Shown piece after piece: positions 8,070 to 57,100 of a stretch of 64,000 bases of DNA. Positions within the stretch are counted from its first letter, which is position 1, and every line of letters begins with the position of its first letter. The DNA comes from Octopus vulgaris (lineage: Eukaryota): contig OX597836.1 of assembly GCA_951406725.2 (NCBI GenBank), forward strand, positions 14,880,001 to 14,944,000. The letters are read 5' to 3'. Position numbers and translations under genes: made by a program. The notes below the pieces were generated by a model, which saw only the letters and a list, made by a program, of their open reading frames with translations, searched no databases and was not told the origin of the DNA.

Positions 8070-8201
8070 TCATTCTTTTCTGATGAAGAGCGAAGGCTCG
8101 AAACATAAAAAAACTTTCTCACTTTCCCGAGCGTCAAACTATTACACTTGCTTGTTCATACACCTATCTTCGTCTTTTGTTTTTCTGTAAATTTCAACTA
8201 T
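8070..8201 (+). mobile_element. Short repeat family H1 with hammerhead-like motif (Penelope pLTR/retrozyme-like)
   Basis: tcttt-CTGATGA-A-GAGC-gaag-GCTC-GAAA-CA-TA, followed by the conserved family tail cccgagcgt...tcttcgtcttttg. Confidence 0.65.
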
Positions 8202-8778
8202 CTGTGTGTACGTGTGTGTGTGTGTGTGTGTGTGTGTGTGTGTGTGTGTGTGTGTGTGTGTGTGTGTGTGTGTGTGTGTGTGTATGTGTGTGTGTGTGTG
8301 TGTGTGTGAGTGTGTGAGTAGCGACTGAGGGTGCCATTCAGCACCAGTGATGCTAGAAATAAAAGTCAGCACAACTCATAGCCACAATAAGGCACCGTCT
8401 TATTCCCTAAGGGAGGCGAGCTCCCTAAACAGGGGGCATCGCCAAATCACCAGTGATTACGCATTACGAGTTAGTTTCTTTTATCTTTTGATTCTATTCA
8501 ACAAGCGGTTTTAGTGTTATGTAGAAAGAGTAAGGTCACGCAGTTATTTATATATTTATTTATTTGACAGCCTTCCATATGCTCCCTTTAAGGCTGGAAG
8601 GACCATAAAAGGGAGACAATAAGTGTGAGATGGTACGACAGGAAGTGTATAAAACAAGAAGGGTGGCCATATATCAATAATTAGATAAATAATTATACAA
8701 TAAAAATAAATAAAGCATGTGTATATATGTGTGTGTATATACATTATATATATATATATATATATATATATATATATA

Positions 8779-51100: not shown

Positions 51101-54100
51101 TAGATTGCATTCTCATTCGCCATGATAGATCGCTAGCCACTTTCTGTTGAAGAGCGTAGGTTCGAAACGTTAAAGACCTTTTCACTTCCCGAGCGTTAAA
51201 CTAATACATCTGTTTGTTGTCTACACCACGTGTCTTCGCCTTTTGTTTTTTTAGTGAATTCTTCCCCTATATATATATATATATATATATATATATATAT
51301 ATATATATATATATATATATATATATATATATATATATATATGTAGGTCCCGGGTTGAGTCGGGGTTAACCACAGTAAATAAGGTACTCAATACATGGCA
51401 GAGTAAATTAATTTATTTTATAGTAGGAGCTTCTACAGGACTAGAACTGTTTCATTCAAATGAAATGGCTTCCTGATGATTTCATTTGAATGAAACAGTT
51501 CTAGTCCTGTAGAAGCTCTTTCTATAAAATAAATTTATATATATATATATATATATATATATATATATACACATATACATATACATATACATATATATAT
51601 ATATATATATATATACGTATATATATATATACATATACATATACATATACATATATATATACATATACATATATATATATGCATGCGTGCCTGAATGTAT
51701 GTATATATGTATGGGTAGGTAGGGTGGTAGTTTGGTAGGTAGGTAGGTAGGTAGGTAGGTGTGCAATTGTGTGTACAGCTGAAAGAAAAAGTTGCTGAAT
51801 ATGTTATTTAGAGTACATATTTGTAGATATGTTATTCATTATTTGCACGATCATTATTTAGTTTCGTAAGCACAAAAATACGAATTCAACGAATCAGATA
51901 AGTGCAATATTTGTAATCGTGGATGCATTTGTATTTCTCTGTGTGTGTGTGTCTGTGCGTGTTTGCTTATCTTTTGCTGATGTATAAACGACACTATTGT
52001 TCGTTAATCTATATCTATAAAACAGACCTTGGACGAAAATTGTATGCACATTTTCCTTTGACGGTTAATGGCGGCCAAACCGAGGCTTGGATCGAGCTGA
52101 AAATTGGCAAGGATAATAAATGCGTGGTGAGGATGAGACCTGCGATGGTTAAAATTCGCAAGCTATAAAGATGTGGTTGCTATGGCAAAAAGAGTGATTT
52201 TTTTATCGATTCAAGGTTGTTCGATTGGCTTTTAATGCCCAACGGCATGCACTGCAGGCTGTTGCGCTTAATAAATATACATTTTGTCACGAAATTCCGG
52301 CTACTAGGAAACGATTTTTCATTGTGAAAAACGAGTGCTTTTTGCCCTCATTTTCTTTTTAATTTTTAACAAAATTTTCGTTTTTTTTTTTTTTACTTCC
52401 TCATCTTTAAAGTGTGGCCCGAATAGACCTGAATGAAATCGGGTTATAATACTAGTAGTAGTATAAAATGATATTAATGAATAATATTCGGAAACAGGCG
52501 AGTTGGATTTAATCCATTACAACCATCATCCCTATACATACCACTACCATTGTGCCTGCGTATGTTACGGATCCAAGTTCAATTACCTCCCTTTACATCT
52601 TTTAGTACAAATAATGCAAAGGCTAATATAAAAAAATACATGTTGCTGCAGTTGTTTTATTCCTGATTAGTCATGATTGAGCAGACCTATAATCAAAGGC
52701 GTTCCAGCTGTGACCATCCGTGTTTTTTGTTCTGTTTTGTATTTTGGTGTTTTTTTTGTTTTTGTTTTTTTGTGGTATATCTAGGACTACTTCATACAAC
52801 GTTTTCTTTTCATATTTAAGGAAAAACTGAAGGTAAGCTTGGCTGCTATTTCTAGCAAGGTGTAACTTCTTTGAGGGACCCCTCTGTTTCGCTAATCATG
52901 TACCAGTAATATACTAAGGGTTAATTCAAACAAAATTTTCATCCTCCTGAACCTTAAATCCTTCTATAAATTGATCAGCACATTGTTTTTTTATTTGTTT
53001 GTATTTTGGGTTTATTTCAAATTTTCTCTATTTCTTTTTTTTTTTTCTTTTTTCTTCATATTTTTCAAAACACAAAAGAATTACCGGATGGAATATTCAA
53101 GGCATTGACAACCCCATGTGTGAAAAGTAAACCCGTCCTTACGGATTTGTCCAAGGAGTTGCGTGATCAATGGGAAATACCTCGAGAAGATATACAACTT
53201 CTTGGTGTACTTGGTAGCGGACAGTTTGGTGAGGTACGAAAAGGTAAGTAAAAAAAAAATACAAAACAACATCAACAGCAACAACAACAGCAAAAATAAT
53301 AATAATAATAATAATAATAATAATAATAATAATAATAATAATAATAATAATAATAATAATAATAATAATAATAATGATAATAATAATAATAATAATAATA
53401 ATAATGATAATAATAATAATAATAATAATAATAATGATAATATTAATAATAATAATGATAATGATAATGATAATAATAATAATGATAATGATAATGATAA
53501 TAATAATAATAATAATAATAATAATAATAATGATGATAATAATAATAATAATAATAATAATAATAATAATAATAATAATAATAATAATAATAATGATGAT
53601 GATGATGATGATGATAATAATAATAATAATAATAATAATAATAATAATAATAATAATTTGTCTTGGGGTAAAAGATGGGCTACAGCAAATATTCTCCTCT
53701 ATACCACAGATTTGCTTGTCAGTTGCTTGACCTTAACCAGTTGACCATGTCCCTTGGTGGTTGACGATATAGCCATGTGTTTGTCGCCCCCCACCCACCC
53801 AACATCGCTTGACAACCGATGGTGGTGTGTTTACATCCCCCGTAACTTAGCGGTTCGGCAAAAGAGAACGATAGAATAAGTACTAAGCTTCCAAAGAATA
53901 AGTCCTGGGGTCGATTTGCTCAACTAAAAGCGGTGCTCCTGCATGGCCGCAGTCAAATGACTTAAACAAGTAGAAAACTAAAAGAGTAAATATATATATA
54001 TATATATATATATATATATATATATATATATATATATATATATATATATATATATATATAATAAATACGATATAGTGCATATTTAATAACATAAGGAATC

Positions 54101-57100
54101 CACTTAGTGTGAGATTCAACACATTAGACAGAACATCTAGGTTCTATAAACCACAAAAATAACGGATAAAATTCGACAGGAATAAATTTGGAAATGAAAA
54201 ACTTTTACCATCTAGTACCCCGGGCCAAATTGGTTTCTGATCTTCTTTTAGCAAGTCGGGGGGACTCGCAAGGTATGATCTTCTTCGGCGAGGTCCAACC
54301 TGGGGTTAAACGTATAAGAGACAGAAGACAAGCACCGCTACCTGTCCGGGGTACTAGATGGTAAAAGTTTTTCATTTCCAAATTTATTCCTGTCGAATTT
54401 TATCCGTTATTTTTGTGGTTTATAGAACCTAGATGTTCTCTCTAATGTGTTGAATTTCACACTAAGTGGATTCCTTTATGTGTAAAAAAATTTGCACTAT
54501 ATCGTATAACTAATATATAGTCTTCTTGACTAATTTTTTTGCACGTTAGACCAATGGAAATGTAAATTTTGATTGAATATTTTAAAAAAAATTTAATTCC
54601 ATTTCCCTTTGATATGATTATATATATATATATATATATATATATATATATATATATATATATATATATATATATATATATATATATATATATATAGCAA
54701 GGAAAAATTGTAAAAAGGCAGAATGCTAAATTGAAAGAAAATGTTAATGAAAATGGGTGTATGGAAAAAGTTTTTGAAAAATTGATAAAATATATAAATA
54801 TATATTAATTCAAACCGGTTTTCGTCATAATGTGACTTTTCAAGAATTGTAAAGGAAATTTTTTTTTTAAAGTGAGAAGGGGAAAAAAGAAAATTACATT
54901 GTTTTTTGCAAAAAAATAATAATAAATATATACAAAAATTTTTAAAAAATATATATATATATATACATATATATGTATGTATGTGTATATATTTTTTTGT
55001 ATGTGCGTATAATGTTATGATGATAATCTGTTCTTTTATTATTCCCAAGGTCTCTGGAAAAACAGTACCACAGTTGCAGTGAAAACCTTAAAACCCGGTA
55101 CAATGTCAGCAGCCAGCTTTCTAGAAGAGTCCAAAATTATGAAAAGGTGCAAACACAAGAACTTGGTCCTCCTCTATGCCGTGTGTTCAATAGGCGAGCC
55201 CATTCTCATTGTCACTGAATTTATGAGCAACGGTAGTCTGCTGTGTTTCCTGCGTTCACCTGGAGGGGAAGCGCTAAGCTTTGAAGAACTTATACATATG
55301 GCAGCCCAGGTGAGTGGAGCGCTAACGAGGGGATGTCGTATGTGTGAATATATGTATACACATACACTCAAACGTCCACACACCCACATACACGCACATA
55401 ACCGTTCAAGAATTTGGACCTGGAGATCTCCATTTCCAGCGACTTCGAGGGCCACCTCCCAGTGGTGTCGGGCGTCAACTACAACATGACGACCAAATTT
55501 CTTTTTTCCAAGGTCTGGGGTCTCCCGCCCCTAAGCCCTAAACCATCCTCTAATCACCCTTACCCGTCTTGTTGCTTGACAACAACAACTACATGCACAT
55601 GCTCATATTTGCACAAACATACAATTGTATGCATAGATATGTATACATGTATATATGCATATATGTATGTTTATATATATATATATATATGCATGTATGT
55701 ATGTATGTATGTATGTATGTATGTATGTATGTATGTATGTATGTATAACTCTCTATCTTTCTCTCTGTATCTATATCTATATATACATATATAGACACGC
55801 ACATATATCTTTATATAGTGAGATTTATGTTGTATATGCGTATGTGTATGTGTAAGTACATACATCAAGTGTGTCTCTGTGTGCGTACAAGTATACATGT
55901 GTATATGTATGAATGCATATATGTATGTATGCATGTATAACTGTATAAAAAACCCTCTCTCTCTCATTCTCTCTCTACCTATCTATATCTCTCTCTATGT
56001 CTATATCTATATATATATATATATATATATATATATATACACACACACGTATTTATGTTTATATATTGATATATATATATATATATATGTGTGTGTGTGT
56101 GTGTGTGTATGTATATATATGCGTATGAGTGTACATATGTTAGTATTTATGTACATACGTATGCATGTATGTTAATGCGTGTTTATATGTACACATCGAG
56201 AGGTTTTATTTAACATATTTAATATGTATATATTCTACGTATCTTATTTCATACTACGCAATGTTTATAGTTTGTAAAAATGTATATCACGAACATGTTT
56301 CTATTATTTTTATTGTGTGAAAATACAAAAATACGTATTTAATTAAATCTGTTATTTTATGCAATATACTCCTTAAACTTCCTTTATACTTCTTTTCTGA
56401 TATACACAGATTGCATCCGGGATGGCCTACCTTGAAAAAAACAACCTCATACATCGTGATTTGGCTGCTAGAAATATTCTTGTTGGTGAAGAGCATGTGG
56501 TGAAAATTGCTGATTTTGGGTTAGCCAGATTGATTGTGGATGACGAATATAATTCCCAACAAGGTCACTACCCGAGCGTTACACTAATACATCTATTTGT
56601 TGTTTACACCACCTGTCTTCGTCTTTTGTTTTTTGTGAATTCTCTCCTTATATATATATATATATATATATATATATATATATATATATATATATATATA
56701 TATATATATGCATTTAATTCTGTTTTTTATATAAATTTTCATCTGTCCTGCCCGCCAAATTTGGTTCTGGTGTTCGCTGAATTTTTCCTCTAGAGAATTT
56801 CCTTTGTAGTTTGATCGTTGATGATCTATTTCTAGCATACGGCCGACTACCTAGCAGTCTTGCCCTGCCAATATACACATATATTAGAATTTTCTCTGAC
56901 TTCTCAGATTTTTGTATGCTAGACTACTGGTTTTAAATTGATATTAAAATTAATATTAATTTATCTCCCTCATTATTTAAATATATATATATATATATAT
57001 ATATATATATATATATATATATATAGAGAGAGAGAGAGAGAGAGAGAGAGAGAGAGATCGATCAAAACAGTTTGATTCAGACTCCTTTGAGTTTCAAGTG

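What the first reader, a model, noticed from the sequence alone, without database searches (positions are those of the whole stretch)
8070..56648. Dispersed family H1: five copies of a 130-190-bp microsatellite-terminated element, four with a variant hammerhead core
Seen: copies at 8070, 32463, 42637 and 51121 plus a tail-only copy at 56565. The four share (y)cttt-CTGWNGA-A-GAGC-NNNN-GYTC-GAAA-CG-TN-aaaga, a conserved ~90-nt tail, and end against (TA)n or (TG)n. The 8080 copy has canonical CTGATGA; the other three have T at core position 6, which looks like a fixed subfamily variant rather than random decay. All four have an extra A after A9, as in the CChMVd (+) hammerhead. Stem III is reduced to palindromic ACGT, compatible with dimeric cleavage. 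Inference: a non-autonomous PLE-derived or retrozyme-like family.
Basis: partly seen in the sequence, partly recalled or inferred. Interest (0 to 1): 0.72.

Follow-up and report, generated by a model that had tools for sequence, protein, structure and literature searches.

The report
Active Penelope element with A6U hammerhead
The five repeats are cut-off tail ends of a very abundant, protein-coding Penelope-like jumping gene, likely of an octopus, whose hammerhead-shaped RNA motif has one normally fixed core letter changed (A to U) even in its youngest intact copies, so it is likely a slowed but still-used self-cutting RNA, though cutting is untested.

Summary
The five copies are real. They are neither a non-autonomous family nor retrozymes. 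They are 5'-truncated 3' ends (pseudo-LTR tails) of an autonomous Neptune-type Penelope-like element with a 4.5-kb unit and a ~1,075-aa RT + GIY-YIG ORF, inserted at (TA)n. I estimate about 50,000 copies in the genome.

The A6U core is fixed in the lineage: 19,246 exact U6 motifs against 371 A6. All 14 young long-ORF copies carry it. The 'canonical' copy at 8080 is a private mutation (0 of 29 nearest relatives have A6). Across five subfamily consensuses (73-92% identical), only N7 and the cleavage-site base vary in the 36-nt motif, and both are positions a hammerhead leaves free. Stems covary with related families, and outgroup relatives keep A6.

The extra A, the palindromic stem III and solo copies are published features of Penelope minimal hammerheads. 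I found no published natural A6U, but one key paper was not held. Cleavage is untested. This scan noted A6U earlier in other genomes (unchecked AI notes). Verdict: a new variant of a known kind.

The parts
8029..8201 (+). 5'-truncated pseudo-LTR tail, oldest subfamily (about 8% from its consensus); ends against (TG)n
   Evidence: endonuclease-coding remnants lie upstream of relatives L209 and L237
8076..8111 (+). minimal type I hammerhead motif; A6 at 8083 is a private change from U6; stem III palindrome broken at 8105; predicted cut 8107/8108
   Evidence: 0 of 29 nearest relatives have A6
32463..32642 (+). 5'-truncated pseudo-LTR tail, N7=A subfamily, flanked by (TA)n on both sides
32517..32552 (+). 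A6U hammerhead motif (core starts 32521); two mismatches in stem II, decayed copy
42637..42829 (+). 5'-truncated pseudo-LTR tail, N7=C subfamily, between (TA)n tracts, in an intron of the Src-family kinase gene
   Evidence: same subfamily is linked to RT/EN ORFs in L061 and L063
42695..42730 (+). A6U hammerhead motif (core starts 42699); cleavage-site base at 42726 is G (family base A), likely inactive in this copy
51115..51268 (+). 5'-truncated pseudo-LTR tail of the N7=G subfamily (this copy reads U at N7), with an internal deletion upstream of the motif; ends at (TA)n; intronic
51140..51175 (+). A6U hammerhead motif (core starts 51144), the best preserved in the window (one G-U in stem II); predicted cut 51171/51172
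56565..56649 (+). tail-only copy starting about 10 nt 3' of the predicted cut, directly at the donor site of a kinase intron; ends at (TA)n
39921..60843 (+). host Src-family tyrosine kinase gene (matched exons); holds three of the five copies in its introns, in sense orientation

Best explanation
The five repeats are 5'-truncated 3' ends of an autonomous Neptune-type Penelope-like retrotransposon whose minimal hammerhead motif carries U instead of the conserved A at core position 6 throughout the lineage, and the motif likely still works as a slow, dimer-dependent self-cleaving RNA (untested). Shown: the full element is a 4.5-kb unit with one ORF (RT, CX4CxxC linker, C-terminal GIY-YIG), usually preceded by a partial second copy of its own 3' end. 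Copies end 100-110 nt after the motif, at (TA)n. Inferred: the element's endonuclease nicks (TA)n and its RT copies the RNA from the tail; most events stop within about 200 nt and leave solo tails such as those in the window. Inferred: in transcripts spanning both pseudo-LTRs, the two motifs pair through the ACGU palindrome and cut after GUA/GUU. This frees a unit-length RNA that is ligated or re-entered by RT, so the 3' part is copied twice. Inferred: A6U lowers the cutting rate, and the element tolerates this or gains from it because reverse transcription must start from a tail that lies 3' of the cut. The solo copies in the window are most likely inert.
For: Identity: a 5' walk from copy 42660-42830 reaches RT/EN frames. 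Pfam finds RVT_1 (E 2.5e-7, above cut-off) and GIY-YIG (E 0.0065, below cut-off) in L130:1978-5211. DKG, YIDD, C836-x4-C841-x2-C844 and YIG887 are present. U6 in active elements: 20 of 20 loci fetched for their RT carry U6; 14 of 14 with open frames over 1,000 aa carry CUGUUGA, 11 of them intact in both repeats; 11 of 14 have a 1,064-1,086-aa ATG-to-stop ORF, and their RT DNA differs by 0-4 of 700 nt among the 11 compared. Genome counts at position 6: T 19,246, C/G 595, A 371. Polarity: of 9 motifs found in 80 metagenome loci with related ORFs, 7 have A6, 1 has G6, none has U6, and one more A6 hit (L358) may be unrelated. Constraint: across 5 subfamily consensuses, 2 of 36 motif columns vary (N7, H17) against 40 of 102 ungapped flanking columns (Fisher p 1e-4), and N7 takes all four bases. 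Covariation on 13 hand-picked motifs: 7 of 8 pairs show two-sided changes, 96% of cells pair, slid controls 24-46%. Template reuse: the upstream and downstream repeats of one insertion differ by 0-3 of about 654 nt (7 of 11 identical) against a mean of 4.3 between insertions, and share 27 variants against 10 unshared. The upstream repeat ranges from about 400 to 1,600 nt and the junction is nearly constant. A TATATA run follows 146 of 175 full-ended copies. A natural A6C variant keeps low activity (PMC3088659; PMC7151607).
Against: No cleavage data exist for this motif. Canonical minimal hammerheads already cut poorly in vitro (PMC4209133), and A6 changes lower activity further, so the product may be near zero. 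All full-ended copies include the tail 3' of the cut, which an uncut RNA explains equally well. 5' ends do not clearly pile up at the predicted cut: 2 of 29 tail-picked copies start at +1/+2, and 0 of 22 rows in the unselected sample start there (one is cut by the edge of its stretch). Loop II is also invariant across the five subfamilies, and some tail blocks are too, so part of the conservation may serve protein binding or a promoter. In the oldest subfamily G16.2 is a tie, because the query carried a CpG-decay allele (19 of 35 A). Columns are not independent. The covariation comes from other families, not from within the U6 lineage, and those rows were selected by a pairing descriptor. The MFE of the 40-nt monomer is a long hairpin (-10.8 kcal/mol) rather than the hammerhead fold (-8.4), and the dimer MFE (-28.0) is not the hand-drawn double hammerhead (-14.9). 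Template reuse is also explained by RT jumping without any cleavage.
Confidence: 0.6

Rival explanations
1. Same element, but the U6 motif no longer cuts. It is kept as a folded RNA handle (or DNA motif) for the element's own RT/EN protein or promoter, and tandem ends arise by RT template jumping.
For: Loop II and some tail blocks are as invariant as the core. There is no clear pile-up of ends at the cut. A second abundant family has a different damaging core change, U4C (8,904 exact hits). Naiad and most Chlamys elements spread without canonical hammerheads (PMC8557442).
Against: The only two variable motif columns are N7 and H17, and H17 moves only between A and U, never to G, in subfamily consensuses. 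A cleavage requirement predicts this; a generic binding site does not.
Confidence: 0.28
2. The motif is a dead relic that hitchhikes; its conservation reflects short divergence time and query bias.
For: Two of the five subfamilies were collected with queries that contained the motif. Only five consensuses were compared.
Against: Flanks changed at 40 of 102 columns over the same history, while three CpGs in the motif stay in the consensuses although they decay in single copies. Copies picked by RT, by upstream sequence or by tail alone show the same motif.
Confidence: 0.07
3. A separate short non-autonomous element or retrozyme, mobilised as its own unit.
For: Most copies are under 250 nt, and 16 of 29 tail-picked copies start 65-100 nt upstream of the cut, a soft preferred start.
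Against: 5' ends are ragged and run continuously into UTR and ORF. Subfamilies of short copies match ORF-linked copies. No multi-unit arrays were seen in the loci fetched; only one pair 214 nt apart.
Confidence: 0.05

Closest known systems
Minimal type I hammerheads (min-HHR) in pLTRs of metazoan Penelope-like elements (Cervera and De la Pena 2014, PMC4209133; I read parts 1-2 of 4 of the text and keyword passages of one supplement, another supplement file was not searchable)
   Same: Located in the pLTR; extra nucleotide between 9 and 10.1; G10.1-C11.1 pair; palindromic 15.2-16.2; short stem I; mostly solo copies from truncated elements.
   Different: The published consensus and descriptor fix CUGANGA (variant noted: U3-A8). 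Here position 6 is U across the lineage, including intact elements, and stem II is only 4 bp.
Neptune clade of EN+ Penelope-like elements (Craig et al. 2021, PMC8557442; keyword passages and supplement rows seen)
   Same: Single ORF with RT, DKG motif, CX2-5CxxC linker and C-terminal GIY-YIG; partial tandem pLTRs; microsatellite insertion bias. By eye, 26 of 40 residues around DKG match the Neptune1_Ap row and 15 of 40 match Nematis_C4.
   Different: Non-canonical hammerhead core. No tree with named references was built. No octopus Neptune family appeared in the supplement rows I saw (Naiad and Hydra did).
Natural A6C hammerhead of phage Bcep176 (PMC3088659 section 8 read; PMC7151607 parts 1-2 of 4 read)
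   Same: Substitution at core position 6 with the rest of the core intact.
   Different: C rather than U; a single bacterial-phage ribozyme with measured low kobs and a Mn2+ preference. Here, tens of thousands of copies in a minimal dimer-type scaffold, untested.
Non-LTR retrozymes (PMC7229834 passages; bioRxiv 10.64898/2026.07.22.740005 part 1 of 5)
   Same: Type I hammerhead, dispersed animal repeat, related to Penelope-like elements.
   Different: Retrozymes are non-coding tandem arrays of 150-450-bp units with canonical hammerheads; H1 copies are solo truncations of a coding element.

Membership tests
EN+ Penelope-like element | single ORF with RT and C-terminal GIY-YIG endonuclease | tested here: met
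   L130:1978-5211, 1,078 aa; RVT_1 E 2.5e-7; GIY-YIG E 0.0065 (below Pfam cut-off); YIG, EH, RHF and GLN motifs; homologues share this make-up
EN+ Penelope-like element | partial tandem with pseudo-LTRs and frequent 5' truncation | tested here: met
   12 of 14 long-ORF copies have an upstream repeat of about 400-1,600 nt; ragged 5' ends
Neptune clade | CX2-5CxxC linker between RT and EN, plus DKG motif (shared with Nematis) | tested here: met
   C836-x4-C841-x2-C844; ADKG at 375
Neptune clade | phylogenetic placement with named Neptune references | tested here: inconclusive
   only a by-eye comparison with supplement rows (26/40 Neptune1_Ap, 15/40 Nematis_C4); no tree
Minimal type I hammerhead | stems I and II around the core, supported by covariation | tested here: met
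   7 of 8 pairs with two-sided changes across related families; rows were selected by a pairing descriptor, and there is no stem covariation inside the U6 lineage
Minimal type I hammerhead | core consensus CUGANGA...GAAA with A6 | tested here: not met
   U6 in 19,246 exact motifs against A6 in 371; all other core positions kept
Minimal type I hammerhead | palindromic 15.1-16.1 and an NUH cleavage triplet | tested here: met
   ACGU followed by A or U in the subfamily consensuses; G16.2 is a tie in the oldest subfamily
Minimal type I hammerhead | self-cleavage as a dimer | not testable with these tools
   no assay; only contig-level runs were available
Non-LTR retrozyme | non-coding tandem array of 150-450-bp units, each with a hammerhead | tested here: not met
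   window copies are solo and continuous with ORF-bearing elements; arrays were not searched genome-wide

The most novel reading that the evidence does not exclude
Penelope-like elements are selected for weakened hammerheads. A6U here, U4C in the sister family and (per unchecked notes) A6U in sharks would be recurrent attenuating changes. They would tune the balance between uncut, tail-bearing RNA and cut or circular RNA, with N7 cycling through all four bases as compensation. The most successful families would then be invisible to the standard CUGANGA search, and the family would offer a natural allelic series to settle what these ribozymes do.
Probability: 0.25. Interest if true: 0.72.

Novelty: new variant of a known kind. 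Interest (0 to 1): 0.5.

Why it matters
The role of hammerheads in Penelope-like elements is still open (PMC8557442 calls it unclear). Here an element that is still or very recently transposing has carried a change at a near-invariant core base through five successive subfamilies, while the rest of the motif behaves as if selected for cleavage chemistry. Either A6 is dispensable in this scaffold in vivo, or these motifs need not cut. Intact copies make the test direct. In an unselected 1 Mb, 13 of 18 minimal-hammerhead motifs had a non-canonical core (9 A6U, 3 U4C, 1 A6C), so CUGANGA-based surveys would miss most motifs in this genome.

Tried and rejected
Rfam: no hammerhead family among the listed matches; not informative for minimal motifs. 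A tail-only genome search with the 32555-32643 copy returned nothing because common words are skipped, so that subfamily rests on 15 copies (9 not picked for A6). Hypothesis that chimeras joined at the cut record trans-ligation: only one genome-wide match in each direction. One maps within 0-3 nt of the cut and the other is uninformative; too few to use. Hypothesis that 5' ends pile up at the cut: inconclusive. Expression: no RNA holder listed. Laying contigs of four other runs showed cover over the motif with no second letter at position 6 at or above 10%, but contigs drop variants; weak, not used as support. Use of the splice donor next to the tail-only copy could not be checked on reads and rests on sequence alone. 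No ORF remnant of the element lies in the window. Thermodynamic folding does not favour the hammerhead fold. Literature: 'hammerhead ribozyme' + 'A6U' gave 3 papers, and the 2 listed concern other RNAs. 'CUGUUGA' gave 333, and the 20 listed were unrelated. Searches gave no listing of a U6 Penelope hammerhead. Lunse et al. 2017 (variant hammerheads of Penelope-like elements) and Hammann et al. 2012 were not held; the former could already list this variant. One supplement file of PMC4209133 was not searchable.
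Full report
Observation. The five stretches exist as described, all on the + strand. A profile from the five finds them at E 5.7e-47 to 8.5e-23 and nothing else better than E 2.7. A core pattern fitted to them occurs 4 times against 0 in 50 resampled windows. Copy 1 starts near 8029. Individual copies are decayed: 8080 has lost the stem III palindrome, 32521 has two stem II mismatches, 42699 has G at the cleavage position, and 51144 is the best preserved. 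The genome (G000, 2.8 Gb) is likely an octopod: a window exon is 96% identical to an Octopus bimaculoides Src-family kinase. Three copies lie in introns of that gene.

What the copies are. The 42660-42830 copy has 2,741 first-look candidates in the genome; the 40 scored are 94-100% identical. Their 3' ends are fixed at (TA)n and their 5' ends are ragged. Searching with the furthest 5' extension and fetching 7 longer stretches led through a pyrimidine-rich UTR into RT and GIY-YIG frames in 3 of the 7. That RT found 150 scored matches at 89-100% identity, many in open frames over 1,000 aa. I fetched 20 of them, chosen mostly for long frames. All 20 carry a U6 motif. The 14 with frames over 1,000 aa all carry CUGUUGA, 12 have an upstream repeat, and 11 have the motif intact in both repeats. 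Eleven of the 14 have a 1,064-1,086-aa ORF, and RT DNA differs by 0-4 of 700 nt among the 11 tandem copies compared. Pfam gives RVT_1 above cut-off and GIY-YIG below it. DKG, YIDD, a CX4CxxC linker and the endonuclease motifs are present. The region round DKG resembles Neptune1_Ap more than Nematis_C4 by eye. The window holds no ORF remnant. H1 is therefore the truncated 3' end of an autonomous Neptune-type element. Eleven copies in 600 kb of evenly spaced sample scale to about 51,000 (my Poisson range 26,000-92,000).

The core variant. Within one stem II context the genome has 19,246 exact motifs with T at position 6, 595 with C or G, and 371 with A; reversed controls give 0. In the even sample, 8 of 9 copies with a readable core have U6, 1 has C6 and none has A6. 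The 29 fetched nearest relatives of the 8080 copy have U6 (23) or C6 (6), never A6, so its canonical look is a private change. A6 is the likely ancestral state: two sister families in the genome keep it, and among 9 motifs found in 80 metagenome loci with related ORFs none has U6.

Is the motif still constrained? Clustering 185 copies on the tail alone gave five main subfamilies (178 copies; 7 in small clusters were dropped), 73-92% identical between consensuses. In the 36-column motif only N7 (U, G, A, C, U) and H17 (A or U) vary, against 40 of 102 ungapped flanking columns (p about 1e-4, columns not independent). These are the two positions that the hammerhead consensus leaves free (PMC7151607). 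Caveats: loop II and some tail blocks are equally invariant, two subfamilies were collected with motif-bearing queries, and G16.2 in the oldest subfamily is a tie. Across 13 selected motifs from this and related families, 7 of 8 stem pairs show two-sided changes and slid controls fall to 24-46% paired; selection by a pairing descriptor inflates this. Energy models prefer other folds for the 40-nt motif.

How it likely works. Shown: copies end 100-110 nt after the predicted cut, and 146 of 175 are followed by TATATA. Upstream repeats span about 400-1,600 nt, meet the body at a nearly constant short TA junction, and share private variants with the downstream repeat of the same insertion (0-3 differences against a mean of 4.3 between insertions). 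One source template therefore gives the 3' part twice. Inferred: nicking and priming at (TA)n; dimeric cutting at the two motifs of a tandem transcript; ligation or RT re-entry, as proposed for these elements in PMC4209133; and a lower rate from A6U, by analogy with A6C. RT jumping on uncut RNA explains the same tandems, so cutting is not shown. Two footprint tests were inconclusive: 2 of 29 tail-picked copies start at +1/+2 of the cut, and only one chimera in each direction joins this family to its U4C sister inside the motif. No RNA run with raw reads was available.

Comparison with what is known. The position in the pseudo-LTR, the extra nucleotide after A9, the palindromic stem III and abundant solo copies are all in Cervera and De la Pena 2014. 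Natural core variants in print include U3-A8, U4C and A6C. My searches found no natural A6U, but Lunse et al. 2017 was not held. The element is a member of the EN+ Penelope-like group and probably of Neptune. The motif works like a minimal hammerhead but fails the A6 criterion, so I file it as a variant. It is not a retrozyme. Earlier unchecked notes of this scan report A6U in Penelope families of other genomes, several shark-like. I reached the reading before seeing them and could not test them.

Verdict. Real; an ordinary kind of repeat; a notable core variant fixed in a recently active lineage. Confidence in the identity is about 0.95, and in retained cleavage about 0.6. New variant of a known kind; interest 0.5.

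Noticed in passing
window 56563-56572: The tail-only copy begins at +2/+3 of the intron donor after the kinase exon 56407-56563, so the bases after GT are element-derived. The next acceptor (AG at 58503-58504) keeps the frame. The donor may originally have been GT followed by an AT repeat. Splicing was not checked on reads.
   Followed up: partly
genome-wide; e.g. L053:2723-2761 (-): A sister family has a U4C core (CCGACGA) and a 3-nt loop II, with 8,904 exact motifs including a few with U3. Its ORF was not traced.
   Followed up: partly
L268:1501-1540 and L269:1501-1535: Two reciprocal chimeras between this family and the U4C sister are joined inside the hammerhead motif; one junction lies within 0-3 nt of the predicted cut.
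   Followed up: partly
five subfamily consensuses: N7 has changed at every step of the lineage (U, G, A, C, U), far more often than an average flanking site; unexplained.
   Followed up: no
L219, L220, L224, L225, L227, L230: 6 of 29 relatives of the 8080 copy have C6, above the genome-wide 3%; an old C6 branch may exist.
   Followed up: no
L130:1355-1375 and 11 other tandem copies: The element body starts with a short TA run, its own insertion target, at a nearly constant junction with the upstream repeat.
   Followed up: partly
L108:456-501 (-), L009, L197: A further family has a canonical core with a 6-bp stem II and different stem I.
   Followed up: no
window 57704-58034, 54053-54519, 8760-9179, 51268-51667: Long fold-back palindromes (e.g. 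332 nt at 98% self-complementarity) and several other dispersed 250-400-bp repeat families.
   Followed up: no
L064:4911-6143 (-): A 411-aa asparagine-rich frame with a GIY-YIG-like end, probably a different Penelope-like family.
   Followed up: no
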